Positions 48,914 to 63,850 of a DNA stretch of 64,000 nt are shown in pieces. The stretch is from positions 32,001-96,000 of the IMG/VR virus record IMGVR_UViG_3300037067_015211; one strand, given 5' to 3'. The stretch comes from a virus (lineage: Duplodnaviria; Caudoviricetes). The position numbers and the translations under genes are program-made. The notes below the pieces were generated by a model that worked only from the letters and a program-made list of their open reading frames with translations, was not told where the DNA came from and did not search any database. Every line of letters begins with the position of its first letter. The first letter of the stretch is position 1.

Positions 48914-48925
48914 ATAAGCTTCCCT

Positions 48926-51900
48926 TTAGTTTTTACTCAGCTCTATTTTTTTCTTCTTTTTCTTCTCGCCAATGAAAAATTTTTGCACTTCAGGAGCGGC
49001 CACTTCTTTGGCAATACTAAGAACTATATCTTTCTTGGCCAACCTCACCGTATGTTTAGAGTCCAAACTATAATCGGCATCTGAATACTGATATTTGCCA
49101 GTCGTGTTTACATACCTATTCTCCGGCGTTTCAGGCAACCCGTCAATGTTAAAATCAGTATATCCAGTGCCCATGCTGACCATACGACACTTATACATAT
49201 CACGCAAATCTTTTGCAAATAATTTCCATGCCGTCTCAATCTGCTCTTTTGTCTTGTCCAGAGAAATATCCTGCCACTTTAAATCGCCCGTATTTATTGT
49301 CTTACCCGATTTATAGTACAAATAGTTTGCCGCCAAACTTTGGCCTTCTTGTACATCATCTTCATCATCGTCGTCTTTGACGAACATATCGTGGAATTCA
49401 ATGGAATCGAATAGTAAATAGTTGTCTGCCGGTTTAACCAACAAAATAGCCTTTTTGTCTTCATTCCACATTAAACCGTACCAGCCTATAACACTCTCGC
49501 CGTCTATATTTTCGTCAAAGTAGTATTCTTTTGTGCTAAATGCCCTGTAGGGAGATATTTCCAGCTTAGACAATTCTTGATATTTTTCAGTATCCTTGTC
49601 AACTATAACCAATTTGTTAGTCGGGTTCTCTGTGTGATAATAAAGTATCCCCTGTGATACTGGTATTTCGTCGCCCTCTCTATAGAGTACGGAGAATGCA
49701 TGGTTGGGGCTTAGATAACCACGCTCCATAGCAGTCTGCCCCGCACCACCTAGCTTTTGGCAACACGATGTCAATAGCCTTTCGCCCAATACCAACCCAA
49801 GCGGATCGTCCTTGCGTAAAATTTCAAGCCTATATTTGTGGCCATCTACAGTGTACACCTTTTGCAAGGGTTTAATACTCGCCATCTCTACATCGCCAAA
49901 AGCAGTGTCCCGAGAAAGCCTTTCCACAAACTCGTCAATAGATTCCTTGGAACTTTCAGAGTATTTATACATCGTATTTTTGTGTATCGATAATGGCGTA
50001 TCGGCTGTATCTACGGCAACATTTGTGTCCACCTTCAGTAGTTCCACCACTGACGGCAATTTAACCTTTTTCATTTCCTCGTCTACTAGCTTTTTTAGCT
50101 CCTTGGGGCCACTGATTTGTATTAGGGCATCTTTGTCCTGTTGCTTCAAATCCGCTTCAATAGAAGCCCGTTTCTGGCCCATATAGACAGGAATCTTAGC
50201 CGCCGCGCTAACTAGATCGGCAAATATTTGATAATCCGCCCGTCTAACCAAATAAGACAACACCAGATTGCCAAATTGTTTGTCCTTTGTAGCGTTTTGA
50301 AAGTTTTCACCCTGTAATGCTACGGCTATATCGTGCAAGCTTGTGTTTCGCTTTAACTGGGCATTGTAGACAATTTTTATTTTCTTCAACCCACCCGTAT
50401 TTTTGCCGCCCATAAGATCCGCCAGTGCATCTATTGGGTTTTCGCCGACGATATCCTTAATCGAATTCGCCTCATCGTTAAATAGTTTGTTCTTTACATC
50501 TTCGGAATAGAGATTAGACTCTGGTTTAGGCACATTTAAATTATTGATTTTAGTCGCCAAATTTATTGTATCGACGACCTTAGATTTTTCAAACCATGCC
50601 TCTCTGTCGTCATATTCATTGAAGTTTACAGAGTAGTTTGCAAGATTCGCCAATAATTTTTCCCTTTCTGGCTCATCCAAATTCCAACTATCAAGTACAT
50701 ATATAGGATCATGATTTCTAATGCCTGCTTTTAATATGAGATTTTTTTCCTCGAAAGAAAGCGTGGCAACCCCAGATGATTTTCGATAATAATTACCCCA
50801 TAAAGGTGAATGAAAGAAATTCTTGTCAAACAGCGCAGATTTTAATAGATTAGTTTTGTTTATATTTATGGAAAATTCACCATCTTTACTTCTTATTTCA
50901 TTGCCATTGCCTTCTGGGCCAGTCAATATAACATATGCAAACTTTTTGTCGAAAGAATATTTATCGTATTGTTCCTGAAGAAGATCATTATTCAAATCTT
51001 TGTATACCGGTTGTCTGCCGCATCTTAGCGCAGAATTAATAATCGTGGCTATAATGCCTTTTTCATATTTTTCATATATGTCAAATATTCTTGACCAATC
51101 TAGTTTGATAATGGGTTCTTCTTTATGCGTTGTTAATTTAATAAAATATATCGTACCATAACTTTGTCCTGCGTAATCGTCTAATAGTTTGTAAAACTGA
51201 TCTTCGGTCGGGACAAAATTATTGGCTTGCAAAAAATCGATAAAATCATTCATGTTACTATTTGGCGATACGGATATATTGTCAATTATAGTTAAAATCA
51301 TTTTTTTGTTAAATTCGGCACCATAAATACCTTTAAATTGTGACGACATACTTATTTTATCTTCGGCATCGTCTCTTGACAAATATGTTATCACCGCATC
51401 CTTCAAATCAATGTTACTTTCTCCCGCCCTTATTTTATTGAACATTAGCGCAAGAAAATTCGACAAACTATCTGTATTTATCCTATTGATGTTTTCCAAG
51501 ACGGGAGAATACATATCTTTTTCATTCTCTTTTGATACGCCCATAACAAGGGCAACATTTCTTCTGGTAATTAAAGTGGCATATGCGCTCAAATCATTGT
51601 CTTTACAATATTGCATGAATGATTTTGTTGTATTTTCATCAGAAAAAATATCGCGAGACTTTAATGTTTCTCTAATTACTTTGTAAAAATAATTTTCTTT
51701 TTCTGCTATCTGGGCAGACTCTAATATCTTTTTATATTCCTCGTCCGTAAGCATAATGTTTGTATGGCGCATTATCTGATCTAATATAGCATTAATGTAA
51801 TCAGACAACTCGCTGGTAGAAAATTTATCTATTGCATAGTAAAAAGAATACAGGATACTACTCCACAATGCTTTTACTAACGTCAAATCAAGCTTTAATG

Positions 51901-52939
51901 CATCCAAAATCTTTTGTATCTTATCTTTGTCAGAAGAAAACCTTTCCAACATATCCTTTACTACCAATATATCCGGAGTGAAATTTAGTTTAGCCAACTC
52001 TTCTAACAAGGCGTTAAAAAATAGAGTAGAAAATTTTTCATTCTCTATCGAGACAAAAGTATGAAACAATGCTAAATTTATAACCCCGTCTTTCGTTAAA
52101 AAATTACTCTTAAAAAATGTAATGTAATCAAGATTATCATAAGTTACAATAAATCTATATCCGGCCATTTGAGTACATCTATTTAAAGCAAACAATATTT
52201 TTTCCGGATGCATCACCTTATTGGCAATAGCAAAGTTTAAGAGCAAAGTATTTGTTTCCACACCCCCTAACGACTCTTTATATTTTACCAACAAATCATC
52301 TAACACTCTATCGTTGGTGTATTCTTCTCCAAGAACTTCTCTGTCTTTAGATAAATCCCATGCTTCACTATATGTAGAAATGTCTGTTAAATTGTTGAAC
52401 AACAACTCTTTTGCCTTTGTGTATTGCGCGTCAGAAAATATAGTCCTATACTCTTTCATAAGAAATTTGACTCTATTCAAATCACTGGGCAAAAACTGCC
52501 CGCTATAATGAAACAATATATTTATTACAAACATTGGAATGTGCTGTTTTGGTATAAGAAACGATCTTTCACTACGTAACATTACATCAAAAAACCATCC
52601 CTTATTATCTTCATTAACATAAAATTCCATAATGGACAAAAAATTAGAGCTAAATTTTTCACTAATTTTATCTGCTATGTATTTCGGAGTGCCAGTGACA
52701 ATACATCTGGGATAATTGTATGCGGCCACTGTAGTCAAATAATCTATTTCATTGACTGGCAATTGTGACAATAAGTTTGGCTCCCCAAAAACTATTTGGG
52801 TAAAATAACTTGTTTCTAGCGCATTGATGTTGTCAAATAATTCATCATTAGGATGTTCCTCACGAAGTATTCGCGCTAGTGTAGGAATTTTACTCTCATC
52901 CGTATTCAACACTGCTTGTCGTTTATTGCTTAGTTTCAT
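48926..52939 (-). CDS. ~1337-aa protein, paralog of 44621-48913
   Basis: Shared C-terminal ~450 aa; divergent helical N-terminus. Confidence 0.8.
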   Translation of the reverse strand: MKLSNKRQAVLNTDESKIPTLARILREEHPNDELFDNINALETSYFTQIVFGEPNLLSQLPVNEIDYLTTVAAYNYPRCIVTGTPKYIADKISEKFSSNFLSIMEFYVNEDNKGWFFDVMLRSERSFLIPKQHIPMFVINILFHYSGQFLPSDLNRVKFLMKEYRTIFSDAQYTKAKELLFNNLTDISTYSEAWDLSKDREVLGEEYTNDRVLDDLLVKYKESLGGVETNTLLLNFAIANKVMHPEKILFALNRCTQMAGYRFIVTYDNLDYITFFKSNFLTKDGVINLALFHTFVSIENEKFSTLFFNALLEELAKLNFTPDILVVKDMLERFSSDKDKIQKILDALKLDLTLVKALWSSILYSFYYAIDKFSTSELSDYINAILDQIMRHTNIMLTDEEYKKILESAQIAEKENYFYKVIRETLKSRDIFSDENTTKSFMQYCKDNDLSAYATLITRRNVALVMGVSKENEKDMYSPVLENINRINTDSLSNFLALMFNKIRAGESNIDLKDAVITYLSRDDAEDKISMSSQFKGIYGAEFNKKMILTIIDNISVSPNSNMNDFIDFLQANNFVPTEDQFYKLLDDYAGQSYGTIYFIKLTTHKEEPIIKLDWSRIFDIYEKYEKGIIATIINSALRCGRQPVYKDLNNDLLQEQYDKYSFDKKFAYVILTGPEGNGNEIRSKDGEFSININKTNLLKSALFDKNFFHSPLWGNYYRKSSGVATLSFEEKNLILKAGIRNHDPIYVLDSWNLDEPEREKLLANLANYSVNFNEYDDREAWFEKSKVVDTINLATKINNLNVPKPESNLYSEDVKNKLFNDEANSIKDIVGENPIDALADLMGGKNTGGLKKIKIVYNAQLKRNTSLHDIAVALQGENFQNATKDKQFGNLVLSYLVRRADYQIFADLVSAAAKIPVYMGQKRASIEADLKQQDKDALIQISGPKELKKLVDEEMKKVKLPSVVELLKVDTNVAVDTADTPLSIHKNTMYKYSESSKESIDEFVERLSRDTAFGDVEMASIKPLQKVYTVDGHKYRLEILRKDDPLGLVLGERLLTSCCQKLGGAGQTAMERGYLSPNHAFSVLYREGDEIPVSQGILYYHTENPTNKLVIVDKDTEKYQELSKLEISPYRAFSTKEYYFDENIDGESVIGWYGLMWNEDKKAILLVKPADNYLLFDSIEFHDMFVKDDDDEDDVQEGQSLAANYLYYKSGKTINTGDLKWQDISLDKTKEQIETAWKLFAKDLRDMYKCRMVSMGTGYTDFNIDGLPETPENRYVNTTGKYQYSDADYSLDSKHTVRLAKKDIVLSIAKEVAAPEVQKFFIGEKKKKKKIELSKN

Positions 52940-53360
52940 TTTTTTTGATCCTATCAATTGCCTTGACCAAATCCAATATCGAAAACCATCGTATATCGTT
53001 CTTCTTCTCGTCGAACCACCACGTACTCAAATTACTTTGCTTCATATCCACCCACGCCAAATAGTGCAAACTAACCTCACACAAAAGAGCGTCCCAGTTG
53101 TCATTTTTTCCGGGCAACATGAATACATCTTCTTTTGTTCTAGGTGGCTCCATGTTCCCGCTTAAAAGAAAATGATTAAGCGCAATCCACACACTCCCCT
53201 GTATCGTCACAGGATCGCCCAAATCACTAGATATCCCATCATAGAATATTTGCATATCGTAATACAAATCGACACATTTTTCAACATACTCCATAAACTT
53301 ATTAAAGTCTTTGTAGCAAATAAGTTCCGTGATCTTCATGGGGATACTATCCGTGGACAT
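52923..53360 (-). CDS. Hypothetical protein
   Basis: AAGGA RBS; overlaps the next gene. Confidence 0.6.
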   Translation of the reverse strand: MSTDSIPMKITELICYKDFNKFMEYVEKCVDLYYDMQIFYDGISSDLGDPVTIQGSVWIALNHFLLSGNMEPPRTKEDVFMLPGKNDNWDALLCEVSLHYLAWVDMKQSNLSTWWFDEKKNDIRWFSILDLVKAIDRIKKNETKQ

Positions 53361-53415
53361 AGCACATCCTTAAAAATGGTGTCTTAAGGATAATAGTATA
53401 ATGGAAGGAGATTAT

Positions 53416-53673
53416 TTAATCTAGTGAGTTTTGAGTGAGAATATTTTCATCAAACTTGAAGGAATCCCAAACATCTTTGTCCAATATCTCAATCCCACAT
53501 ATCTGATTGCCCTCGCCCATATCGGCGTAAATTTCGTCCGCGACCACTTCTGCCGTTCTGGTAACATCCTTTTTGAGCAACCTGATATACCCAGCCATAA
53601 ACTCCCCATCGTCATCACGCTGTACGCTTATGATAAGACTGGCATTTTCTCGACAAATTATTTTGCTTTGCAT
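53416..53673 (-). CDS. DUF2283-like protein
   Basis: YIRL......T.EV...IYAD....QICGIEILD. Confidence 0.7.
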   Translation of the reverse strand: MQSKIICRENASLIISVQRDDDGEFMAGYIRLLKKDVTRTAEVVADEIYADMGEGNQICGIEILDKDVWDSFKFDENILTQNSLD

Positions 53674-53686
53674 AAGAGTATAATAG

Positions 53687-54370
53687 CTAAATTTTCATTA
53701 AATATTTATTTGCAAAATATTCATTGGCCTTGCTGGACCCATGATAGGCATTGCTCTCGTCTATTACCAGCATGGGATCGTTGGTGTTGTAGCCTAAACC
53801 ACCTACCATAGTGTCCAAGTTAGCCGCTGACCTGTTCCGCTTCCACTCGGCCAAGACGATATCCCTGTATTCGTCGTCCAAAAAGAATTGGGCATGCTTA
53901 AACTCGTGCTTAAATAGTCCGTCTATTTTGCCACCATTCTCAATGGCTTTTTTAATGGAATCGCCCATAGTTACTATGAGATAATATTTGGGAAGATCAT
54001 AATTGGCTTGAAACCAAAGTAGGACATCCCGCAGAAGCATTTCTACTGTGTTCAAAAAGCGTCCGCTCTTCCCGTCATCAAACAATTTGTAAAATTTATC
54101 AATCGTATCTGAAGATACATTCCACCCACACCAATCAGTCGCGTAGGTGAATTCCTCATTGCCAGATTGTTTTGTATACCAATCTTTGTATTCGTCTAGT
54201 GTAAAATATTTGCCTGCAAATTCAGGGGATTCTTGAAACTCAGAGAGTCTAGTAATTAGTGGGCCAATTATGACGGGATCATCGACGGCAATATAAATTA
54301 CGTTCCTATCGACTAGGTAAATCTCGCCCATTTCTCGAAAAGACGTAATGTATTCCCATTCAAACTTCAT
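53687..54370 (-). CDS. Putative zinc metalloprotein (HExxH)
   Basis: R..EFQESP.F.GKYFT..EY..WY...Y..DW.G.N, HEFKHA, DE..AY. Start placed at ATG 54370 because the longer ORF overlaps tRNA-Leu. Confidence 0.7.
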   Translation of the reverse strand: MKFEWEYITSFREMGEIYLVDRNVIYIAVDDPVIIGPLITRLSEFQESPEFAGKYFTLDEYKDWYTKQSGNEEFTYATDWCGWNVSSDTIDKFYKLFDDGKSGRFLNTVEMLLRDVLLWFQANYDLPKYYLIVTMGDSIKKAIENGGKIDGLFKHEFKHAQFFLDDEYRDIVLAEWKRNRSAANLDTMVGGLGYNTNDPMLVIDESNAYHGSSKANEYFANKYLMKI

Positions 54371-54420
54371 ATTCGCTCTCCCAACCGTCAAATATTGTTT
54401 GACAGTTGCGTTAAATTCAG

Positions 54421-54505
54421 TGTCCGAGGTGGGATTTGAACCCACAATGGGCTGACGCCCGACGGGGCTTAAACCCGTTGCCTTTGCCAGTTTGGCCACT
54501 CGGAC
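54421..54505 (-). tRNA. tRNA-Leu(UAA)
   Basis: Reverse complement GTCCGAG...ACGGG-TT TAA GC-CCCGT, variable arm GGGC-GTCA-GCCC, GTGGG-TTCAAAT-CCCAC. Confidence 0.92.
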
Positions 54506-54507
54506 GG

Positions 54508-54582
54508 CACCGCCGGTAGGGTATGATCCTACAAACTTTCGGGTTAGAAACCCGATACTCTATCCATTTGAGTTACGGCGGT
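54508..54582 (-). tRNA. tRNA-Arg(UCU)
   Basis: Reverse complement ACCGCCG...TCGGG-TT TCT AA-CCCGA...GTAGG-ATCATAC-CCTAC-CGGCGGT-G; atypical T-loop. Confidence 0.82.
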
Positions 54583-54604
54583 ATTTTTTCAATGAACCAA
54601 ATAG

Positions 54605-54632
54605 ATTATATGTACAATTTGCCCGTTGTCAA
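54605..54632 (-). promoter_or_regulatory. tRNA promoter TTGACA-N16-TATAAT
   Basis: Consensus hexamers within the 3' end of the zinc-finger gene, ~20 nt upstream of tRNA-Arg. Confidence 0.8.
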
Positions 54633-55496
54633 GCGTCTTTTTGTGTATTTTTTCTTGCACTTAACACATAAATCCCCGTCTGGGCCACGATATCTTCGAT
54701 GTAGCCACTCCCCACACTTTACGCACTGATATCGGAATATACCCTTAGCTTCCATCTTAGGCCCAGCAAACTTCGTGCTCCCATTAAAAAGGAGTGCATC
54801 ATCTGGAATTAGCCCATGATTTGCAAACAAATGTTTTGTCAAATCGGAAAGTTGCTTATATTTTTTTTCACACAATGGACAATGATAATTTTTTATCCTC
54901 TCTCTTGGAACACCCTCATGCATTGTGTGAAGATGTCTCTTATACAATCTCTTTTGAATCTTCGCCCCGCACACTTCACATGTTACGTACACCCCCTTTT
55001 TCTCATGTACATATTTCACATGTTCATCTCGTGTCCATTTTTTATTAAACACCCTTCCACATATTTTACATGTATAAAAAACTTTATGCAATTTTTCATG
55101 ATTGTTTTTTGCGCCCCTTGATCCTAATTCTTTCCCACATATAGAGCATTTATATTTTCTATCTAAAAAATGCTCCTTGCGCATATGCGTTTCAAGTCTT
55201 CCTCTTGATGCAAATATTTGTTGACACAAATAACATTTGTAATTTTTTTGATGCCGTTTAATATGTTCTTTTATTTTGACAATAAATTTACCACATATAG
55301 GGCACTTCTTCTTTTTCTTCGGTCCATGAACATATTTTTTATGACTCCAAAGACCATCATAATCGGCAAATCTTTTTCTGCATATATTACATTCATATTT
55401 CAGTTTATCATAATGTTTTTCCATATAATGATTTGACAAATGAGCCGGGCAATAAAATTTTTCTCCACAAAATTTACAAACATATTCATACTTCAT
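54606..55496 (-). CDS. Tandem C2H2 zinc-finger array protein (8 fingers plus a C4 unit)
   Basis: Eight CxxC...H-x3/4-H units, most with Y-x-C and F/L core residues. Confidence 0.92.
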   Translation of the reverse strand: MKYEYVCKFCGEKFYCPAHLSNHYMEKHYDKLKYECNICRKRFADYDGLWSHKKYVHGPKKKKKCPICGKFIVKIKEHIKRHQKNYKCYLCQQIFASRGRLETHMRKEHFLDRKYKCSICGKELGSRGAKNNHEKLHKVFYTCKICGRVFNKKWTRDEHVKYVHEKKGVYVTCEVCGAKIQKRLYKRHLHTMHEGVPRERIKNYHCPLCEKKYKQLSDLTKHLFANHGLIPDDALLFNGSTKFAGPKMEAKGIFRYQCVKCGEWLHRRYRGPDGDLCVKCKKKYTKRRLTTGKLYI

Positions 55497-56370
55497 TGAT
55501 TCGGACTTCCTTGATATCTACGATCTTTCCATCTCTTCGGACAATCATTTCCAGCCAGCCACACGGAGACGGTTTCATGCCCTTGGAAATAGCATAGTTC
55601 CAACGATTATAGAGAGTAGCATCTAACATATCGCCTGTGATGCAAAGCCATGCGGTATGATCGTCCATTACTTCCGTGTCGTAATTCGGAATGAAGTCGT
55701 CCTTTTTAACAGCCTTTAGGTCGTGCATATGCCCAGAAAAAGCGGCCTGAATTTTGTGGAACTTGCCATTGTCCACAATGAAGCCGCCCCTATCTTGTAA
55801 GAATTCTCTTACTACTTTGATTTTACTATCTGCTCTAACCGCATTGGAACTACCATGTTTGCCGATAAAATATACGTCTTTGTATTTTTTGTTGTTCAAG
55901 GATAGCGTAAGCTTCACATCGGCCTCGACGCCCATGTATTTGCCACGCCAGCCATTGCATGTATTCATATCATCCAAAAACTCATGGACTACCCTATGGC
56001 CCTTGGCATGCATCTTGGCCTCATGGTTGCCGATAAAAAATCCAAGCACATGCTTTGCAATCGGCTTAAATAATTTTTTAAGCAACCTTTTTTGGTCAGT
56101 AACATCCATTTGGGCTTCAGTTGTTGCATCTTCTGCAATATCTACTGTGCAGAGATTAAATCTCTTATCATCGGGCAAAATGCACTCCATCATATCCCCG
56201 TAGGAGTAAATTCCTTTTACGCCCTTTACTGATTTTACTCTATCAGTAAATGCTTCCATCCCGTCAATTCTAGCACAACAATTGCCAATGTGCCAGTCCC
56301 CAGTATGAAAAATCGTTGCATACTCGGCTGTTCCCATGTAGATCGTGTTTTCAATAAGTTTTCTTGACAT
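55486..56370 (-). CDS. Calcineurin-like metallophosphoesterase
   Basis: GDWHIG, GDMME, GNHE, HG, GHMH. Confidence 0.88.
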   Translation of the reverse strand: MSRKLIENTIYMGTAEYATIFHTGDWHIGNCCARIDGMEAFTDRVKSVKGVKGIYSYGDMMECILPDDKRFNLCTVDIAEDATTEAQMDVTDQKRLLKKLFKPIAKHVLGFFIGNHEAKMHAKGHRVVHEFLDDMNTCNGWRGKYMGVEADVKLTLSLNNKKYKDVYFIGKHGSSNAVRADSKIKVVREFLQDRGGFIVDNGKFHKIQAAFSGHMHDLKAVKKDDFIPNYDTEVMDDHTAWLCITGDMLDATLYNRWNYAISKGMKPSPCGWLEMIVRRDGKIVDIKEVRINEV

Positions 56371-56379
56371 TTTTTTCTC

Positions 56380-58356
56380 CTAAATGATTCCCATACCGCC
56401 GCCGCTTCTTGGTCTGATATTTCCTCTACCAGCCCTTTGCGGCTTAGATGATTCTCCACGATTCGCCAACTCGTTAAATCCCCCCACCCCTATAATACCC
56501 TTGGCAACTCTCGGCCTTGGCGGTGCCTCTGGAGCGTCTCCTGCTAAAATTTCTTCCACCACCCTAGCCACACATTCAATTTCGTCGTCAGTGGCCCCAA
56601 TCGATTTTTCAATTACAGTTCCCTTGTCTTCCAATCTTTCCGCTTCCCAAAGCAATTGATTGTCGTAAAAAATATCTAACCTTTGCCCATACCATAATTC
56701 CTTCAAACAGTTGAATGAGACAACGGTGGGCCGCTTCTTTTCACAAAGCATCCCCAACGAATTAAAATCCTGAATTGTTTCTGTCGATTGATATTGGTCT
56801 AAAGTTATCTTGTTAAAACGAAACTGAAAGCCCCGCTTTTGCAATAGGTTGATGAAAAACTTCTTGACATCCTTTATCCTAATTTCTTTGACTCCATTTG
56901 ACACAAATGATGCCGACAAATCAATAATTGCCGTTTTAAAACCAACTCCATCTATCGTTACATCCGGCCCCCTATGGCCTACACACAGCCCAACATGGTC
57001 GTTTATGGTAGCTAGGTCGATGTGAGCATAGTACCTAACGCTAGGATCATCATCGGCAAAAAAACTACCGTCTAACATCTGCCATGCGTCATTCGGATAA
57101 AACGGCAATAATTTGCCTTCAGGAGAAATAGGATTAGGCAATGGATCCACCCTAGCCCTGTTAATGTTTTCTTTAATCCTGTCCAGTTCCTTGAAAAATC
57201 TGCTAATAGCCATAGCGGGAATTGAAGCATTATTTCTCAAAAACCGCTCTGGATTATCTCGATATTCCGCTTCCAATGATTTGGGGACATCTAGTTCATA
57301 TACAATCTTTTCCCCCTTACGGTCTTCCCTCATTATGGAAATGTGAAATGTATGCCCGGCGTCAATATCAGGCTGATATTTGGGGTTTACTTCCCACGAT
57401 GGGTGTCGGCGTATCATGACCTTGCCATGAGGAACGCTAATAGGCGTATCTTTAATCCGATCCTTGGCAAACTCTTTGTATTCATTCTTATATCTACACT
57501 CTGCTTCAAACATGAATTCTTCAAAATACCTTGCTTCTGTCCCAGCCGTAGAAGTGCAGATTACCAGCCCTTTACACGCCGCATATTCGAAACGAGATTT
57601 TCTACGGTTGTTTACCATATAAAAAATATCTTGAAACAAATCTTCTGTTTTTGTGATAAAACAATCGTCAGCCGCGCATTCATCTACCCCGCAGAATAAA
57701 AGGTTAAAACCAGTAGGGGCAGATTTAAGAGAAGATTCGGCTGGCATAATTTCAAGTTCAGGGTAGCCCTTGAATTTAATTCTGCTCGTAACTTGTGGGT
57801 CAATTACAAATCCATTGCGTTCAAACCATTTGCATTTATTCACATTAGTATACAAGCCGGAGAATACAATGTCCTTGGCCTTATTGGCAGTCGGCCCTAC
57901 GTTCATAAAGGCAAATTTGCTTCCCTGCATCTGACCATAAAAGGTACACATTGATTTGAGATGTAGATTCCATAGCAAGAAATAGTATTCAGCTAGATAG
58001 GCAAATGTTGATTTACCGGCACCGAAGCCAGCATTGAAGAAAAATATTTCAGATATAGGCGCGTAATCTTCGCCTGAAAAAAGTATCTTTAAGTTTTCTA
58101 TGATCTTGGGGAATATTTCTTTTTCGTTACAGTTAAGGTAATTTTTCCCAAATATGGCCTCTTCAGGGGATGGTGGTCTTTCTTTCCATGTGGCGTTCTT
58201 AGAATTTTTAATGACAATATTGTTTGATAGATCGGCCACTTCGGATTTTTTGCTACTAATAAGCGCATCCAAATTAATTTTGCCCTTGATACCCAAAGCC
58301 TTTGTAATATCGGGCTTGTTGATGTTTGGGAGCGATTTCGGAGCGCGACGACCCAT
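56380..58356 (-). CDS. terL: Terminase large subunit
   Basis: Walker A AGFGAGKS, Walker B GVDE, TST; RNase H-like C-terminus AHIDLA...TLDQYQS...DD. Confidence 0.85.
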   Translation of the reverse strand: MGRRAPKSLPNINKPDITKALGIKGKINLDALISSKKSEVADLSNNIVIKNSKNATWKERPPSPEEAIFGKNYLNCNEKEIFPKIIENLKILFSGEDYAPISEIFFFNAGFGAGKSTFAYLAEYYFLLWNLHLKSMCTFYGQMQGSKFAFMNVGPTANKAKDIVFSGLYTNVNKCKWFERNGFVIDPQVTSRIKFKGYPELEIMPAESSLKSAPTGFNLLFCGVDECAADDCFITKTEDLFQDIFYMVNNRRKSRFEYAACKGLVICTSTAGTEARYFEEFMFEAECRYKNEYKEFAKDRIKDTPISVPHGKVMIRRHPSWEVNPKYQPDIDAGHTFHISIMREDRKGEKIVYELDVPKSLEAEYRDNPERFLRNNASIPAMAISRFFKELDRIKENINRARVDPLPNPISPEGKLLPFYPNDAWQMLDGSFFADDDPSVRYYAHIDLATINDHVGLCVGHRGPDVTIDGVGFKTAIIDLSASFVSNGVKEIRIKDVKKFFINLLQKRGFQFRFNKITLDQYQSTETIQDFNSLGMLCEKKRPTVVSFNCLKELWYGQRLDIFYDNQLLWEAERLEDKGTVIEKSIGATDDEIECVARVVEEILAGDAPEAPPRPRVAKGIIGVGGFNELANRGESSKPQRAGRGNIRPRSGGGMGII

Positions 58357-58553
58357 TATTTAATGCTCCGCTTTAAATCGTCTATTGAGGTTTCTAGGCT
58401 ATCGATTTTCATCTTAAGATCATTAATTTGTTGCGCCACGGCAACCAAACCGCTCATGCTAGACAGAATAGTTTCGAAGTTTGCATTTAACTTTTTTATT
58501 TCATCTCTTACGGCATTAAATGCATTTATCACTTGTTTGTTGTCAACTGTCAT
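58356..58553 (-). CDS. Small coiled-coil protein
   Basis: Heptad pattern; stop overlaps the terL start. Confidence 0.6.
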   Translation of the reverse strand: MTVDNKQVINAFNAVRDEIKKLNANFETILSSMSGLVAVAQQINDLKMKIDSLETSIDDLKRSIK

Positions 58554-58595
58554 ACATACACCTTAAAACATCATAGGGGATTTTTGCGTCTTTAT

Positions 58596-59132
58596 CTAAA
58601 CCGAGTCAATTCGGCATACCTTGATCTTCGCCGCCTTCAGCATCTTCTTGGCAAACTCAAAGTTGTACAAACTTTCTCTTTCAGACTTTAGAGTTTCTTT
58701 ATCGCCTGAGCAATAAATTGTTTTGATGCCAGCATTGATAATTGCCTTGCAACATTCAATACAAGGAACGCCACATGTTAAATAAAGTGTTGCTCCATTC
58801 GTTTTTCTCCCATATCTAGCCGCGTAGACAATTGCATTCTGCTCTGCATGATGGGCCAAACAATATTGCATTGCCTCACCAGATCGTTTAATGCCCAATC
58901 GTTTTCTAATACAGCCGTTTTCAACCGTATCGTTTTTGTTGGTATTAAAATCTAGCCATCCGTCTATAACACCATGATTTGAACAGTCTCCAATTTCAGA
59001 AGGAGGGCCATTATGTCCTATGCCGATAATCTCCCCATCATTTACCAGCACGGCACCAATTTTCCTAGAATAACAATTGCTTTCTTGAGCAAAATATTTT
59101 GCCCACATAATATACCATCTTGCAGTATTCAT
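58596..59132 (-). CDS. dCMP deaminase
   Basis: S.C.SRKIGAVLV, G.NG.P, HAEQNAI, PC.EC.KAIINAGI. Confidence 0.92.
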   Translation of the reverse strand: MNTARWYIMWAKYFAQESNCYSRKIGAVLVNDGEIIGIGHNGPPSEIGDCSNHGVIDGWLDFNTNKNDTVENGCIRKRLGIKRSGEAMQYCLAHHAEQNAIVYAARYGRKTNGATLYLTCGVPCIECCKAIINAGIKTIYCSGDKETLKSERESLYNFEFAKKMLKAAKIKVCRIDSV

Positions 59133-60386
59133 AAATTTTTGAGGCAAGGAAACCGCCACCCTTGTGGTGGCGGAGGAATTGCCTCCCTCCTATCTAAAAC
59201 TACTATATGTCAAAAACCGAGTACATTCAACTCTGGCGTTTTGTGTCAACCGTTTTCCTGTCTTCAAATCGTGCAAACTCAACCTGTTTTTTAAACTACC
59301 TCCAACATAACATAAACCAAATTTCTCATTCTTAACCAGACTACCTTTCTTGAAACCCAAACTCATTGTGCCACCATATCGTTTTCTTTCGCTGCCAGTG
59401 TCGGGTTGAAAACGATGCAATTGTCTTCTGTGAAATCGTATCGGAACCATCCTTTTGATTTTTGTATTGTCGGGTTTTGTATGACCTCCGATTAACCAAT
59501 TTGCCAACACCCAAGAATCAACATTATGAGCGTCAAAAGATTCCAACATCTTATTTTTTGTTTTCTTCAACCCAAGATTATTTCTCATTTCAAACGTTTC
59601 GTATCCTTGTCTTGTTTCGAGATTGCCGAGTTTCTTCAATTCCGAGTAAAACCATTCTTTCCCAACCTCCAATGGGCTGAATGATTTGTTCCACTTCTTT
59701 TGACCCGTTTTTGTCTTCGCCTTGATGTTCTCAACAACATAATCGGTGATGGGAAAAACTCTTTTAAGACGATTCACGATTCTTAATTTCAATTGCCATC
59801 TCGCTTTTGTCGATGGTGCAAGATAACATCTTGCTCTATTTTTTCTGTTTTGACGACATGGTGTCTTCCGTTGTCGTCTACTTCTTCGAGCGTTTCGTTT
59901 GCTTTCAATAGCATCCTTAACCCAAGTCACAGCATCAGAAAGCACGTTCAGATAAGTATGACTTTCTGACTTGACTGTAAATGCTTCTCGTTTACTACCG
60001 GGGTCAATGCCAACCACGATATCCTGTTTCTTAGTGTCGCTTGGTTCTTGGTTCAATCGAACACAAAATATTCCGTTACTCCAAAACGGCGTTGCTTTGT
60101 TTTTCTTAATCCATTGTGCCACTCGCCAATTTGTGGTTGGCATAAGTTGTTGATTTTTAAAATCGACAACCGGAACAAACATCTATACATTCCTTAAAAA
60201 TGGCGTTTATTTTCTATAAGACGGAAAACGCCGTCAAAACCTTGTTGTATACATCCCTTCGACACTGACTCACAGAGGGAAAGAGAACTAGGGAAGCATC
60301 CTCAATGTCTTTTGGACTACCACGTCCAGTGAGTTCAGTTACAAACTGTCTAGTCAATCAGTCGCCCTTAAAAATCGGTGGTTGGT
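59133..60386 (-). mobile_element. IsrB-encoding IS200/IS605-superfamily element
   Basis: Upstream omegaRNA-like region, isrB, and terminal hairpin CCGCCACC-ACAA-GGGTGGCGG. Confidence 0.8.
59190..60182 (-). CDS. isrB: IsrB (PLMP domain, split RuvC, bridge helix; no HNH), RNA-guided nickase
   Basis: QLMPT, GIDPGSK, RRSRRQRK, VVENI, H.VDS, RRQLH; 330 aa with no HNH insertion. Confidence 0.88.
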   Translation of the reverse strand: MFVPVVDFKNQQLMPTTNWRVAQWIKKNKATPFWSNGIFCVRLNQEPSDTKKQDIVVGIDPGSKREAFTVKSESHTYLNVLSDAVTWVKDAIESKRNARRSRRQRKTPCRQNRKNRARCYLAPSTKARWQLKLRIVNRLKRVFPITDYVVENIKAKTKTGQKKWNKSFSPLEVGKEWFYSELKKLGNLETRQGYETFEMRNNLGLKKTKNKMLESFDAHNVDSWVLANWLIGGHTKPDNTKIKRMVPIRFHRRQLHRFQPDTGSERKRYGGTMSLGFKKGSLVKNEKFGLCYVGGSLKNRLSLHDLKTGKRLTQNARVECTRFLTYSSFR

Positions 60387-60405
60387 TAAACTCCTTTCTT
60401 CAAGC
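60183..60405 (-). ncRNA. Predicted IsrB omegaRNA (5' guide plus scaffold)
   Basis: Reverse complement ACCAACCACC...GATTGACTAGAC...GATGCTTCCCTAGTTCTC...GTCGAAGGGATG resembles IscB/IsrB scaffolds. Confidence 0.7.
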
Positions 60406-60932
60406 CTCTGGCCTTGTACCAGAGGTGATTGACAGATTTCCACTTCTGGAATATCTTCTTCTTTCTTTTCCTCCTCTTGTTTTTCCGCCTCGTTCCGTTT
60501 CATTTCCAAAAATCCCTGTAGACAGATATTTCTCTGGTATACGGTTTTCCCATACTTCTCGCTCTTTGGGTTACCGCACTGACCCGATTGACTGCCAGCG
60601 GCGTCTTGGAAAAAATGCTTAGTACAGGTTTCGCAACAGAATTTTTTGATGTTTTCCATTTTGTGATGATAGTTGTAATAAATGGGGCTTAGCTTTACCT
60701 CACACCTAACCAGAGGTGTTTCGTACTTCTTTCGCTTCTCTTCGTCCAAATCATATGTATTGCCCCGCAGTTCATAGGTAGCGTATTCGTAGGCGTCTAC
60801 ACGATAAATATTCATTATCTTTCTATCTACTCGCCGTTTGATTTTGAGCCTAGACCCTATCTTGGGCAACTCATGTACCATTACCTCGAAACTAAAATCC
60901 GTTTCACGACACATTAGAATAACTCGTTCCAT
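60354..60932 (-). CDS. Hypothetical protein; C-terminus runs into the IsrB element
   Basis: AAGGA RBS; Cys cluster. Confidence 0.6.
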   Translation of the reverse strand: MERVILMCRETDFSFEVMVHELPKIGSRLKIKRRVDRKIMNIYRVDAYEYATYELRGNTYDLDEEKRKKYETPLVRCEVKLSPIYYNYHHKMENIKKFCCETCTKHFFQDAAGSQSGQCGNPKSEKYGKTVYQRNICLQGFLEMKRNEAEKQEEEKKEEDIPEVEICQSPLVQGQRLEERSLTNHRFLRATD

Positions 60933-61046
60933 AGCATCCTTTCTCTATAACTATAAAAAACTACATTAACTTAAATGATAAACGAAATTATTGCAGTTGG
61001 CAAGTAAAAAATGCAAAAAATTTGTAGGTGTGAATTACAGAGATAA

Positions 61047-63002
61047 TTACTTCGCGGCTTGCAAAACTTTATTATAGATTTCTTCTCCAATCGCCTTAAT
61101 GGCAACTGTTTTGTTATCGCGGAAATCTTTTACCGATCTAATTCCGTATTCATACAATTTTTTGGCCCTAACGCCTCCGATATGCGGCAATGAACAAAGA
61201 AGTGCGGCTTCTCTCTGAACTCCATATTTCACGCGATATTTCAAAATCTCCAAATCACTGCCCCTATCCCATCGAGCACACATTTTGTCGATCATCCCAA
61301 TTGTGGTAAAAACTCTCTCGATATCGTAAACAAAATTTCTGAAATCCAGCTTGAAAGAATCCATATCCCTATTTTTAAGCTGCAAATAAATTGCAGTCGC
61401 TTTTACCTTCCCTTGACAAATATTTGTTCCAAGCGTATTTCGCATTTCCGACTCGAATATACTAACCAGTTTTTGATGATAACTGGCCACATAGGGGTCT
61501 GCAAAATTAGATACATTAGCCAATGCCCATGCAATGGCAATCTCGTTGTTATGCAAATTTTGTTCAAATATATTTGCAAAGTTTCTCTTCCATTGGTAGA
61601 CCGTCCAAGGATCATAATACATAGCCGTGCAGATAATGCCCAATTTTTTGATTACAAACTTATCGTCTTTTTTGTCAATAATTCCCATTTCTACAAATTT
61701 TTCCAACATAATGGAGATTTGTTCTCGGTCAAACTCTTTGTAGTGGAAATATCTAAATGTTCTTTGATACCATTTGAGTGCGGATTCCAAATCATTGATT
61801 TCACCATTCTTGATCTCGGCCACAATATGAGCACCCATTTTTCTCACACCACCATCACTGTCGATCATGGCAGATTCAATGGGCGGCAGATCCTTTAGGA
61901 TTTTTTTCCACTCATACATTTCTTCCATATTGCAAACGTAATAGACTTCTCCGGTCTTGCTATATCCAATGCGCCCTGCTCTACCAGCCATTTGAACGAC
62001 ATCGTAAGGGTTGATAAGGCTTTGACCCCGCTTGAACCCGCACAGAATAACTACTGCGGCGGTTGTATTGACCCCCCATGCAATAACAGAAGTAGCTACA
62101 ATACACCTAATAGAGTCCTCGGTGTTTTTGTTGAAGTCGTCAATTATTTTCAACTTTTCTGACTTTTCTAGGTCAGCGGATAGAAAAACAACTTGTTTGC
62201 CAAATATTTGCTCTAGTTTTTCCGTAGCTACTGCGCCCTCTTTTTTGGAATGGACAAAGAAGATGATTTTCTTGTTTTTTAATTGTCGGGCCACGTCTAC
62301 AGCAGTTTGAATGCGCATTTTAACTTCATCATTATATCCCCTTTGTCTTGAATACGCAATCCACTCTTGACTGGTTTCGATAGGCCGATAATCGGATATA
62401 ATGGTTTTATATGGTTTGCCGTTCAGGAGAGCAAACCATTTGCCGATATCCTCTACGTTGGGCAGGGTGCCCGAGATAGCCAGTAGTCTAGCGTCCTTGT
62501 TGTAGTTGGTAAAGCGCATTAACCCCGCTTCTAGGGCGTCTCCGCGCCCGTCTATGGCAAGCAAATGCACCTCATCGACAATTATACACCCCACATCTAA
62601 AAGCCATGAATGCTTCTCGGCAACCATCATTCTGGTCTTAGAGTCAAGAGATTCCGATGTCATGATGATAATTTCCGCCTCGGCAAATTTATTTGCCGGG
62701 ATATTCATGTAATCTCCCGTACAAATCAGTATTTTTTTGCTGGAAAAACCATGATTTGTATTGGTCCATTCAGCGGCTTTTTGTTCGGAGATGGCCTTCA
62801 AGGGGCTTAAGTAGATTGCCTTCTTTTTATGCACTGCCAGAGTATGGGCTATGAGCATCTCGGCCAAGGTGGTTTTACCGGCCGATGTACGGGCGGCTAT
62901 GATGAAATTAGCATCCTGATCGTATTGATTTAGGAATTCAGCCTGAACTGGGTTGAATTCAGGATACGGGAATTGCAAGTATTTGAAATCTGATGTTGGC
63001 AT
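61047..63002 (-). CDS. Ski2/Hel308-like SF2 helicase
   Basis: FNPVQ, ARTSAGKT, PLKA, TGD, DEVH, SGT, AWGVN, QMAGRAGR, C-terminal HhH LPHIGGVRA. Confidence 0.92.
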   Translation of the reverse strand: MPTSDFKYLQFPYPEFNPVQAEFLNQYDQDANFIIAARTSAGKTTLAEMLIAHTLAVHKKKAIYLSPLKAISEQKAAEWTNTNHGFSSKKILICTGDYMNIPANKFAEAEIIIMTSESLDSKTRMMVAEKHSWLLDVGCIIVDEVHLLAIDGRGDALEAGLMRFTNYNKDARLLAISGTLPNVEDIGKWFALLNGKPYKTIISDYRPIETSQEWIAYSRQRGYNDEVKMRIQTAVDVARQLKNKKIIFFVHSKKEGAVATEKLEQIFGKQVVFLSADLEKSEKLKIIDDFNKNTEDSIRCIVATSVIAWGVNTTAAVVILCGFKRGQSLINPYDVVQMAGRAGRIGYSKTGEVYYVCNMEEMYEWKKILKDLPPIESAMIDSDGGVRKMGAHIVAEIKNGEINDLESALKWYQRTFRYFHYKEFDREQISIMLEKFVEMGIIDKKDDKFVIKKLGIICTAMYYDPWTVYQWKRNFANIFEQNLHNNEIAIAWALANVSNFADPYVASYHQKLVSIFESEMRNTLGTNICQGKVKATAIYLQLKNRDMDSFKLDFRNFVYDIERVFTTIGMIDKMCARWDRGSDLEILKYRVKYGVQREAALLCSLPHIGGVRAKKLYEYGIRSVKDFRDNKTVAIKAIGEEIYNKVLQAAK

Positions 63003-63028
63003 TCTTTGCCTTTTTTATTTTTTCTTTT

Positions 63029-63850
63029 TTATTCATCCTTGCCATAAACCAAAATAACGGCATCTTCACAAATACTCACGGTTTTATGGAAAAGCTTAGC
63101 TTTGACAATTGTATTTTGACACTGTTCATGAAAATTCATGGCAGCATTTCTTTTTTTGTCTATATGGGCCGCCTCTCTTTTAATTTTTTCTAACTCTTTT
63201 TCAAGCACTTCCAACTTTGCAAGTTTTTCCTGTTTATTCATATTTAACATCATACCCTCAATAACAATATTTCTGACCAAATTTTCATTGATTCATCAAA
63301 AAGCCTACCCATTGGAGCAACTTTGTCACATGTTGCATTTCGAACAGTCGATAATTTTTTCATTTTTTCTCTATTTTCGATAAGTTTTTTTTCTAATTCT
63401 GCAAACTTTCTTGTTTTTTCTTTTTTATTCATATATGTCTTTTTTAATAAGAATTACGACGGCATCAGAAAATAATTGAATGGATTCATTTAACACTTTT
63501 GACATTGCCACTATATTTTTACACTTATCTATAGTGGTTGTATTTGCAATCTTTTTTTTACTCAAATTACTCATTTTTTTATCATTTGCAATAATTTTGT
63601 TTTCAAGTCTTTCAAAGTCAAGTTTTGCTTGTTTGTTCATGTTTTAATTTATTTCCATGCCATCTTCATACATATCTTTTTTAATAAGAATTGCCAAGGC
63701 CATCACCTTGAATTTGAATTCACTCAATTCTGCCTCTTCTTTTTCCACAGATAAAGATGCAATTCTTTTATTATTAATGGCACTTTGCCTTTTTTCTAAT
63801 TCTTTTTCAAGGCTTTTGAGTTTTTTATTTTTTTCTTCCTGTGTCAGCAT
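63029..63850 (-). CDS. Four tandem paralogous small coiled-coil proteins (63029-~63241, 63250-63432, 63425-63640, 63644-63850)
   Basis: Shared MNK.EK......LEK.L start and hydrophobic A.IL[IV]KKD end. Confidence 0.7.

What the first reader, a model, noticed from the sequence alone, without database searches (positions are those of the whole stretch)
54606..55496. Eukaryote-style tandem C2H2 zinc-finger array in a bacteriophage
Seen: eight consecutive fingers (e.g. YKCYLCQQIFASRGRLETHMRKEH, YTCKICGRVFNKKWTRDEHVKYVH) with short linkers and variable recognition helices, plus a terminal C4 unit. The gene overlaps the phosphoesterase downstream of terL and contains the tRNA promoter, so it is integrated in the phage sequence. 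Known: poly-C2H2 arrays (TFIIIA/Kruppel type) typify eukaryotes, while bacterial Ros/MucR proteins have a single atypical finger. Canonical TGEKP linkers are absent. Inference: a long-site DNA/RNA-binding protein, perhaps a late regulator or packaging-site recogniser.
Basis: partly seen in the sequence, partly recalled or inferred. Interest (0 to 1): 0.78.

Follow-up and report, generated by a model that had tools for sequence, protein, structure and literature searches.

The report
Eight-finger C2H2 protein in jumbo phage
A 212-kb uncultured bacteriophage and its two known relatives carry a real, fast-evolving gene for eight classical "eukaryote-type" zinc fingers plus a conserved zinc ribbon, placed just after the DNA-packaging motor gene. 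This is a rare design for a bacterial virus; it probably reads DNA, but its target is unknown.

Summary
Window 54606-55496 (-) is an intact 296-aa ORF with eight C2H2 units and a C-terminal C4 ribbon. Pfam zf-C2H2_4 scores 2.2e-20 and zf-C2H2 1.4e-16. AlphaFold2 gives eight beta-beta-alpha units, and the best structural matches are CTCF, ZFP568 and TFIIIA.

It is not a chimera. Orthologues (47-57% identity) lie in the same slot in two other viral lineages: TerL, phosphoesterase-motif gene, zinc-finger gene, promoter, tRNA-Arg, tRNA-Leu. All 36 zinc ligands are invariant.

The gene changes 2-4 times faster than its neighbours. The C4 ribbon and finger 3 stay conserved.

The host is bacterial by promoter content. 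No similar protein was found in 50,697 GenBank phage records, and no paper describing one was found. Three uncultured tailed-phage proteins that UniProt labels C2H2 match the model weakly, so phage C2H2 arrays are rare but not unique.

Function is inferred. The likeliest role is a long-site DNA reader with a variable head and a conserved anchor, acting with the operon's DNA-processing or packaging proteins. A plain transcription factor is nearly as likely.

The scan has noted this same stretch once before from another window.

The parts
54606..55496 (-). Zinc-finger gene: 296 aa, eight C2H2 fingers plus a C4 ribbon, pI 9.7, 71 K+R against 27 D+E
   Evidence: The start at 55496 is supported by an AAGGAAG Shine-Dalgarno-like motif 9 nt upstream and by conservation of finger 1 in the orthologues.
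55413..55484 (-). Finger 1 (aa 5-28), C-x2-C-x12-H-x4-H
55326..55397 (-). Finger 2 (aa 34-57), canonical spacing
55251..55310 (-). Finger 3 (aa 63-82), a short C-x2-C-x9-H-x3-H variant preceded by a lysine run. It is the most conserved finger (60% invariant).
55170..55241 (-). Finger 4 (aa 86-109), canonical spacing
55086..55154 (-). Finger 5 (aa 115-137), C-x2-C-x12-H-x3-H
55005..55076 (-). Finger 6 (aa 141-164), canonical spacing
54918..54986 (-). Finger 7 (aa 171-193), a short C-x2-C-x11-H-x4-H variant
54816..54887 (-). Finger 8 (aa 204-227), canonical spacing
54633..54740 (-). C-terminal C4 zinc ribbon and basic stretch (aa 253-288). It is 67% invariant among orthologues, against 33% for the finger region.
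54605..54632 (-). Sigma-70 consensus promoter TTGACA-16-TATAAT (12/12) for the tRNA pair, embedded in the last nine codons and the stop
   Evidence: It is conserved in L002 (inside the ORF) and in L005 (intergenic).
54506..54582 (-). tRNA-Arg (TCT)
   Evidence: conserved in L002 and L005
54420..54505 (-). tRNA-Leu (TAA)
55486..56370 (-). 294-aa metallophosphoesterase-motif protein. Its stop overlaps the zinc-finger start by 11 nt.
   Evidence: PHROG 7339 'DNA repair exonuclease', E 2.2e-9. The motifs GDxH, GD, GNHE, H and GHxH are invariant. There was no Pfam, NCBIfam or PDB sequence hit.
56380..58356 (-). 658-aa large terminase (Walker A motif GFGAGKST)
   Evidence: ESM Atlas clusters are named terminase large subunit, carry PF27249 and are Uroviricota; orthologue annotation
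58356..58553 (-). 65-aa coiled-coil-like ORF whose stop abuts the TerL start; possible minimal terminase partner
   Evidence: a 65-80 aa ORF lies at the same place in L002, L016 and L017

Best explanation
This is a genuine, vertically inherited phage gene. It encodes a strongly basic protein made of eight classical beta-beta-alpha C2H2 fingers followed by a conserved C4 zinc ribbon. I read it as a DNA-site reader in two parts. The first part is a fast-evolving finger array that contacts a long, asymmetric nucleic-acid site, most likely double-stranded DNA. The second part is a conserved anchor (the ribbon and finger 3) that holds it to an invariant partner. The gene is translationally coupled to the metallophosphoesterase-motif gene and lies in the same co-directional block as the large terminase. 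No classical small terminase is recognisable in the genome. The likeliest job is therefore site recognition for a DNA transaction of that block: choosing the packaging site, or guiding cleavage or processing. Shown here: the gene is real, the fold prediction, ligand conservation, synteny, rate asymmetry and promoter overlap. Inferred: zinc binding, DNA binding, the partner and the site.
For: The fingers are classical. All 32 finger ligands and the 4 ribbon cysteines are invariant across orthologues that share only 43-57% identity. Net charge is about +44 and pI is 9.7. The C-G-K/R motif after the second Cys, typical of DNA-backbone contact, is present in most fingers (together with established zinc-finger structure knowledge). 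Helix positions -1, 2, 3 and 6 are invariant at 3 of 32 sites, against 58 of 148 elsewhere in the fingers (Fisher p = 0.0008, or p = 0.13 once ligands are excluded). dN is 0.33-0.59, against 0.12-0.30 for the neighbours. The ribbon is 67% invariant and finger 3 is 60% invariant, against 25-42% for the other fingers. The 11-nt overlap with the phosphoesterase-motif gene is kept in the orthologues. The zinc-finger gene and the phosphoesterase-motif gene show the same narrow distribution. The slot is empty in a relative whose TerL is 42% identical. No Terminase_2 or T4 gp16 family hit exists in the genome. No repeated intergenic operator-like motif was found that would suit a multi-promoter regulator.
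Against: No binding has been measured. Several fingers carry small residues (A, G, S) at the base-contact positions. Two linkers are two residues shorter than canonical. A continuous Zif268-like wrap over 24 bp is therefore unlikely. The excess variability at recognition positions loses significance once ligands are set aside. Gene neighbourhood is weak evidence, and the block also holds a helicase and a dCMP deaminase. Part of the conserved C-terminal tail is explained by the embedded promoter rather than by protein function. The phosphoesterase-motif protein could not be modelled (pLDDT 34), so its nuclease nature rests only on PHROG 7339 and its motifs.
Confidence: 0.35

Rival explanations
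1. It is an ordinary transcription factor. The array binds one or a few operators in phage or host DNA and represses or activates transcription, as most eukaryotic C2H2 arrays and the archaeal-virus protein AFV1p06 do.
For: This is the default role of C2H2 arrays; AFV1p06 binds DNA (PMC3541406). The best structural matches are the DNA-bound regulators CTCF, ZFP568 and TFIIIA. Fast change at helix positions fits co-evolution with operators.
Against: No repeated asymmetric motif was found in 17 kb of intergenic DNA. The gene is not in an early or regulatory region; it is coupled to a phosphoesterase-motif gene after TerL. The conserved ribbon suggests a fixed partner, but that partner could equally be RNA polymerase.
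Confidence: 0.27
2. It is an RNA-binding protein, for example binding tRNA, mRNA or a structured phage RNA. TFIIIA fingers 4-6 bind 5S RNA in this way, as do zf-met/JAZ fingers.
For: Finger 4 matches zf-met weakly (E 9.9e-6). Linkers are non-canonical and base-contact positions carry small residues. TFIIIA is among the structural matches. The gene lies immediately upstream of two conserved tRNA genes.
Against: No RNA element was identified. Adjacency to the tRNAs is explained by their separate promoter. The Pfam signal is dominated by the DNA-type families.
Confidence: 0.1
3. It is a protein-binding scaffold or counter-defence factor. The fingers bind host or phage proteins, or the protein acts as a general DNA coat or zinc store, and the rapid change reflects an arms race.
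For: It evolves 2-4 times faster than its neighbours. Many eukaryotic fingers mediate protein contacts (established knowledge). Its GC3 is the lowest in the neighbourhood, 0.30 against 0.35-0.49, which is typical of accessory genes.
Against: There is no PADLOC match. The array is collinear and fixed at eight fingers in all three lineages, unlike arms-race arrays that gain and lose repeats. It lacks the N-terminal leader that earlier notes propose for virion cargo (compared with the sequence).
Confidence: 0.12
4. It is an artefact: an assembly chimera with eukaryotic DNA, or a chance ORF.
For: The closest hits outside the family are metazoan poly-zinc-finger proteins at about 30% identity.
Against: The same gene lies in the same slot in other assemblies at 47-57% identity, flanked by orthologous phage genes and tRNAs. 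It overlaps the upstream phage gene and contains a conserved bacterial promoter. Its GC content is phage-like.
Confidence: 0.01

Closest known systems
Eukaryotic tandem C2H2 arrays (TFIIIA, CTCF, ZFP568/KRAB-ZNF; Pfam PF00096, PF13894, PF13465)
   Same: Both have the C-x2-C-x12-H-x3-4-H motif with the aromatic/Leu core. The phage protein has a predicted beta-beta-alpha fold repeated eight times at a 26-33 residue period. It aligns collinearly over all eight fingers with metazoan proteins at about 30% identity. These families are also the best PDB matches.
   Different: The phage protein has no TGEKP linkers, and two linkers are two residues short. Two fingers have short x9 and x11 spacing. There are no KRAB, BTB or SCAN partner domains. 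A C4 ribbon sits at the C-terminus. It is encoded by a bacteriophage under bacterial signals (Shine-Dalgarno-like motif, sigma-70 promoters).
Ros/MucR prokaryotic zinc finger (PF05443)
   Same: Both are bacterial-world C2H2-type zinc sites. Finger 3 has a short Cys-His spacing, which I recall from memory as Ros-like.
   Different: Ros/MucR proteins have one finger inside a larger globular domain. Pfam gave no ROS_MUCR hit at E <= 1, and this protein has eight classical units.
C2H2 proteins of archaea and archaeal viruses (AFV1p06, PDB 2LVH; SSV1 B-129, PF22034) and C2H2 arrays fused to archaeal Tn7 TniQ
   Same: Both are classical zinc-finger folds outside eukaryotes. AFV1p06 binds DNA. In the TniQ fusions a tandem array serves as the target-site selector joined to a conserved docking domain, which is the closest functional analogy to my reading (PMC3541406; bioRxiv 10.1101/2025.07.27.667033).
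   Different: Those are archaeal; this host is bacterial by promoter content. AFV1p06 has one finger. The TniQ arrays are fused to TniQ, whereas this protein stands alone. The B-129 model matched only at E 0.79.
Zinc-finger-array homing nucleases and nuclease-free Cys4 arrays noted earlier in this scan (giant viruses, Asgard archaea, a giant soil phage)
   Same: Both are long arrays of zinc modules with variable reading residues in viral genomes, placed next to packaging or capsid genes.
   Different: This ORF has no nuclease domain. The array is fixed and syntenic rather than mobile. The earlier giant-phage arrays are Cys4, not C2H2. Those notes are unchecked leads.
Small terminase subunits (TerS)
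   Same: Both are encoded beside TerL, and both have a proposed role in recognising phage DNA for the motor. No other TerS family is detectable in this genome.
   Different: TerS proteins are oligomeric rings with an HTH or similar N-terminal domain. This protein shows no sequence or fold similarity to them, and it lies downstream of TerL with another gene in between.

Membership tests
Classical C2H2 zinc finger (PF00096 / PF13894) | The Cys2-His2 ligand pattern C-x2-4-C-x12-H-x3-5-H, with a conserved aromatic residue and Leu | tested here: met
   Six of the eight units have the exact spacing; fingers 3 and 7 have x9 and x11. All ligands are invariant in three orthologues.
Classical C2H2 zinc finger (PF00096 / PF13894) | The score exceeds Pfam's curated gathering threshold | tested here: met
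   zf-C2H2_4 scores 71.8 bits against 27, zf-C2H2 60.3 against 25.2, and zf-H2C2_2 51.7 against 40.
Classical C2H2 zinc finger (PF00096 / PF13894) | A beta-hairpin plus helix fold for each unit | tested here: met
   The AlphaFold2 model shows the E-E-H pattern eight times. Mean pLDDT is 64, about 62-88 across fingers 1-7 and about 50 for finger 8. Foldseek gives CTCF and ZFP568 at E 1e-12 to 1e-13. This is a prediction only.
Classical C2H2 zinc finger (PF00096 / PF13894) | One Zn(II) ion bound per finger | not testable with these tools
   This needs metal analysis of purified protein.
Krueppel-type arrays | A conserved TGEKP-like seven-residue linker between fingers | tested here: not met
   The linkers are YDKLKYE, GPKKKKK, QKNYK, FLDRKYK, KVFYT, EKKGVYVT and EGVPRERIKNYH, with lengths 7, 7, 5, 7, 5, 8 and 12 and no TGEKP.
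Ros/MucR (PF05443) | A single finger embedded in the ROS_MUCR domain | tested here: not met
   There is no PF05443 hit at E <= 1, and the protein has eight tandem units.
Zinc-finger nuclease / homing endonuclease | A nuclease domain (HNH, GIY-YIG, PD-(D/E)xK or Vsr) in the same protein | tested here: not met
   Pfam, PHROG, NCBIfam and PADLOC detect only zinc-finger or ribbon families.
Zinc-finger nuclease / homing endonuclease | Sporadic, mobile distribution | tested here: not met
   The gene occupies the same slot in three lineages, with collinear fingers.
Small terminase (TerS) | Homology to known TerS families or to their oligomeric fold | tested here: not met
   No TerS family appears among the hits for this protein. 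The function could still be analogous.
TFIIIA-like RNA/DNA dual binder | Binding to a specific RNA and to its gene | not testable with these tools
   The only evidence is a structural resemblance, Foldseek hit 8ffz_A at E 2e-10.

The most novel reading that the evidence does not exclude
Bacteriophages have recruited a eukaryote-type modular zinc-finger array as a programmable DNA address reader. The variable eight-finger head picks a long site. The conserved C4 ribbon docks it to the co-translated phosphoesterase-motif enzyme or to the terminase. This would make a natural two-component targeted DNA-processing or packaging-initiation system, filling the place of the missing small terminase.
Probability: 0.18. 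Interest if true: 0.85.

Novelty: new variant of a known kind. Interest (0 to 1): 0.6.

Why it matters
Tandem classical C2H2 arrays are the largest family of DNA readers in animals. The literature treats them as practically absent from bacteria (PMC3541406; bioRxiv 10.1101/2025.07.27.667033). Here a conserved eight-finger array is encoded by a virus of bacteria, expressed through bacterial signals, and wired into the packaging and DNA-metabolism block.

This shows that the module works, or is at least maintained by selection, in a bacterial cytoplasm. It offers a small natural test case for how such arrays are anchored and retargeted. It also gives a concrete candidate for the unidentified DNA-recognition component of packaging in this jumbo-phage lineage.

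The origin of the gene is unresolved: it could have come from eukaryotes, from archaea or from old viral stock.

Tried and rejected
**Complex prediction.** Complex prediction on the phosphoesterase-motif protein plus the zinc-finger protein, each as an alignment, returned no verdict (score 0.00). It is not used either way.

**Phosphoesterase-motif protein.**
- The AlphaFold2 model failed (pLDDT 34), so no fold search was possible.
- Sequence and profile searches against PDB gave nothing meaningful.

**More family members.**
- None were found in IMG/VR, metagenome contigs or genome contigs. Those scans use family-specific peptide patterns and cannot find generic arrays.
- The word-indexed protein search found only two orthologues, plus two unrelated generic zinc-finger proteins on short contigs of unknown origin.
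- The exhaustive representative search was swamped by metazoan poly-zinc-finger proteins (51,862 hits) and could not be filtered for prokaryotic or viral ones.

**Relatives through neighbouring genes.** IMG/VR scans with the phosphoesterase-motif protein and with TerL found nothing.

**Host assignment.** A search with the IS605/TnpB gene gave only 34-48% identical hits across Methanobacteriota, Ktedonobacter and Bacilli. This is not informative.

**C-terminal ribbon.** The ESM Atlas feature search returned only sub-threshold hits.

**Binding-site search.**
- The intergenic motif search returned only the extended -35 box and Shine-Dalgarno-like words.
- The genome-wide motif CAAA-N2-5-TTTG was considered as a target and set aside. 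It is palindromic. It is also present in the window's genome and in L002 but not in L005, which does not follow zinc-finger similarity.

**dN/dS.** It could not be used, because dS is saturated for every gene.

Full report
**1. What is there**

Window 54606..55496 on the minus strand is an uninterrupted 296-codon ORF. A pattern search finds eight Cys2-His2 units at residues 5-28, 34-57, 63-82, 86-109, 115-137, 141-164, 171-193 and 204-227. A C-x2-C-x15-C-x2-C unit follows at residues 258-280. Six units have the canonical C-x2-C-x12-H-x3-4-H spacing. Fingers 3 and 7 are short variants, with x9 and x11.

Shuffled versions of the same protein give 0.28 such motifs on average and never more than 5, against 8 observed. 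Pfam places the protein well above the curated thresholds:
- zf-C2H2_4: 71.8 bits, E 2.2e-20
- zf-C2H2: 60.3 bits, E 1.4e-16
- zf-H2C2_2: 51.7 bits

In a six-frame scan of the 212,568-bp genome, PF00096 hits occur only in this ORF.

An AlphaFold2 model built from the three-member alignment has a mean pLDDT of 64. Confidence is about 62-88 across fingers 1-7 and near 50 for finger 8. The model shows a strand-strand-helix pattern eight times. Its best matches among solved structures are DNA-bound CTCF, ZFP568, TFIIIA and a designed six-finger protein.

The protein is very basic: 71 K+R against 27 D+E, pI 9.7. TGEKP linkers are absent. The His-to-Cys linker lengths are 7, 7, 5, 7, 5, 8 and 12.

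**2. It belongs to the phage**

The window is part of an IMG/VR virus record of 212,568 bp, estimated 95% complete.

The upstream 658-aa ORF falls in ESM Atlas clusters named large terminase. Those clusters carry PF27249 and are Uroviricota. The window also carries PHROG families typical of tailed phages: a branch-migration helicase, dCMP deaminase, an HNH-type protein, and the RNA ligase/tail-fibre attachment catalyst.

Near-consensus sigma-70 promoters (at least 11 of 12 positions) number 34 in the genome, against 9.2 in Markov shuffles. The zinc-finger start has an AAGGAAG motif 9 nt upstream. The host is therefore a bacterium, although I could not name it.

The word-indexed protein search found exactly two orthologues, P0002 at 57% identity and P0003 at 47% identity. 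Their contigs show the same gene order:
1. TerL
2. Phosphoesterase-motif gene
3. Zinc-finger gene
4. tRNA-Arg(TCT)
5. tRNA-Leu(TAA)
6. A roughly 224-aa gene
7. A DUF2283 gene
8. A roughly 140-aa gene
9. A roughly 1300-aa gene

The neighbouring proteins are 66-83% identical among the three lineages. This rules out an assembly chimera with eukaryotic DNA.

The start of the zinc-finger gene overlaps the end of the phosphoesterase-motif gene by 11 nt, and the orthologues overlap in the same way.

**3. The embedded promoter**

A perfect TTGACA-16-TATAAT lies at 54632..54605 on the minus strand. It is one of only four 12/12 matches in the genome. It occupies the last nine codons and the stop of the ORF and lies 23 nt upstream of tRNA-Arg.

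The DNA alignment shows the same promoter, nearly base for base, inside the ORF of L002. In L005 the ORF stops earlier and the promoter is intergenic. The C-terminal residues after about position 288 are therefore shaped by the promoter and should not be read as a protein motif.

**4. How the gene evolves**

All 32 finger ligands and the four ribbon cysteines are invariant in the three-way alignment. The alignment is collinear, with no gain or loss of fingers.

The protein nevertheless diverges much faster than its neighbours. Identity is 43-57%, against 82% for TerL and 73% for the phosphoesterase-motif protein. dN is 0.33-0.59, against 0.12-0.30 for the neighbours. dS is saturated for every gene, so no dN/dS ratio can be given.

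Conservation is uneven:
- Ribbon region 253-288: 67% invariant
- Finger 3, with its preceding lysine run: 60% invariant
- Other fingers: 25-42% invariant

The canonical base-contact positions (-1, 2, 3, 6) are invariant at 3 of 32 sites, against 58 of 148 elsewhere in the fingers. Fisher's test gives p = 0.0008. This weakens to p = 0.13 when the obligatory ligands are left out. I therefore treat it as suggestive only.

GC3 of the gene (0.30) is the lowest in the neighbourhood, where other genes have 0.35-0.49.

**5. Distribution and precedent**

- tblastn of the protein finds nothing at E <= 1e-3 in 50,697 GenBank phage records, and only chance-level hits at E about 7.
- A canonical metazoan array used as a query also finds nothing there. 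Classical poly-C2H2 arrays are thus at least very rare among deposited phages.
- The exhaustive representative search gives 51,862 hits. The top hits that carry source names are metazoan poly-zinc-finger proteins at about 30% identity: killifish, scallop, sea slug and tick. This reflects the shared finger framework and says nothing reliable about origin.
- In BFVD the best structural matches are proteins of giant viruses of eukaryotes. Three proteins from uncultured tailed phages that UniProt labels C2H2-type also appear, with weak scores of E 4e-5 to 7e-5 and 13-17% identity. Phage C2H2 arrays are therefore not unique to this lineage.
- Four literature searches found no paper that describes one.
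- The literature calls the classical finger practically absent in bacteria and scarce in archaea and their viruses (PMC3541406). A recent preprint reports tandem C2H2 arrays as the target-selecting domain of archaeal Tn7 TniQ proteins, and none among thousands of bacterial TniQs (bioRxiv 10.1101/2025.07.27.667033).
- A relative whose TerL is 42% identical has neither gene after TerL. A relative with 55% TerL identity has the phosphoesterase-motif gene, but its contig ends before the slot.

**6. Context relevant to function**

The co-directional block reads:
1. Helicase
2. A 192-aa gene
3. An HNH-type gene, absent from L002
4. dCMP deaminase
5. A 65-aa coiled-coil-like ORF
6. TerL
7. Phosphoesterase-motif gene
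8. Zinc-finger gene

The phosphoesterase-motif protein matches PHROG 7339, 'DNA repair exonuclease', at E 2.2e-9. It keeps the five metallophosphoesterase motifs invariant. It is too divergent for Pfam, NCBIfam or PDB sequence searches, and its model failed.

The genome has a separate canonical pair elsewhere: a Rad50-like ATPase and a Metallophos gene. This one is therefore an additional enzyme.

No Terminase_2 or T4 gp16-type small terminase is detectable in the genome.

**7. Interpretation**

Three features fit a targeting subunit, meaning a DNA (less likely RNA) reader held to a fixed partner:
- A rapidly changing, ligand-perfect finger array
- A much more conserved C-terminal ribbon
- Conserved translational coupling to an enzyme gene beside the terminase

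I give 0.35 to the reading that it serves a DNA transaction of its own gene block, either packaging-site choice or guided processing. I give 0.27 to a conventional transcription factor. RNA binding, protein binding or counter-defence roles each get about 0.1.

The points against a Zif268-like 24-bp wrap are real. Two linkers are short, and several fingers carry small residues at the contact positions. A TFIIIA- or CTCF-like mode, in which only subsets of fingers read bases, is more plausible.

I found no candidate site. Intergenic motif counting returned only promoter and Shine-Dalgarno words.

**8. Side observation**

The genome is strikingly enriched in the inverted repeat CAAA-N2-5-TTTG. 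There are 334 sites, against about 85 expected, and against roughly 80 for the reversed or direct arrangements. This is the only 4-mer inverted repeat that stands out.

The sites are evenly spread and lie mostly in coding DNA. The same enrichment is seen in L002 (32 against 7.5 expected) but not in L005 (5 against 3.7). In window 44000-63100, 18 of 33 mappable sites lie at the same aligned position in L002.

Its meaning is unknown. I do not link it to the finger protein, because it is palindromic and its presence does not follow zinc-finger similarity.

**9. Verdict**

The finding is real, and the gene is conserved and unusual. It is a new variant of a known kind of protein in an unexpected host setting, and its function is still inferred.

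The scan noted this same stretch once before from another window. Elsewhere it has noted C2H2 arrays in giant viruses and Asgard archaea, and a single C2H2 finger in another phage's packaging module. These notes are unchecked leads.

Noticed in passing
whole genome; e.g. window 44229-62695 (37 sites), three of them inside the zinc-finger gene at 55239, 55220 and 54838: The inverted repeat CAAA-N(2-5)-TTTG is enriched about 4-fold genome-wide: 334 sites against about 85 expected, with the peak at N3-N4. Sites are evenly spread and mostly in coding DNA. The relative L002 shares the enrichment, L005 does not. About half of the sites are positionally conserved with L002. The cause is unknown; it could be a site for an abundant DNA-binding or DNA-modifying protein.
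   Followed up: partly
window 59190-60182 (-): A 330-aa HNH-type ORF (PHROG 32617 / 2214) sits between the dCMP deaminase gene and the 192-aa gene. It is absent from the same junction in L002, so it looks like a mobile homing-endonuclease insertion.
   Followed up: partly
window 58356-58553 (-): A 65-aa coiled-coil-like ORF has a stop that abuts the TerL start codon. An ORF of 65-80 aa is conserved at this position in L002, L016 and L017. It may be a minimal terminase partner. No known TerS family was detected in the genome.
   Followed up: partly
window 53687-54499 (-): The mechanical 270-aa ORF runs into tRNA-Leu. Orthologues have 223-224 aa, so the true start is probably the ATG at 54367 (226 aa). 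No family was found for it in Pfam, PHROG, NCBIfam or PADLOC.
   Followed up: partly
genome G000:C1:127701-128342 (-) and 131508-132128 (-), outside the window: A canonical Rad50/SbcC-like ATPase (AAA_23) and a canonical Metallophos gene lie here. The phosphoesterase-motif gene beside the zinc-finger gene is therefore a second, highly divergent copy of that enzyme class.
   Followed up: no
genome-wide; window 54605-54632 (-), and genome positions 12243 (+), 8598 (-) and 96078 (-): There are four perfect TTGACA-16-TATAAT promoters and 34 near-perfect ones, against about 9 expected. Their strands largely follow gene direction. The phage relies heavily on host sigma-70.
   Followed up: partly
window 19472-20710 (+); L002 181-1422: IS605/TnpB-type transposase genes are present in this phage and, at a different place, in its relative. 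The nearest genomic homologues are only 34-48% identical and are spread over unrelated phyla.
   Followed up: partly
window 48926-52957 (-) and 44621-48913 (-): Two very large ORFs (1343 and 1430 aa) lie downstream of the tRNA pair. They have no Pfam or PHROG family. The 1343-aa protein is 78% identical to its L002 orthologue but only 40% identical to the L005 one, a sharp rate difference between lineages.
   Followed up: no
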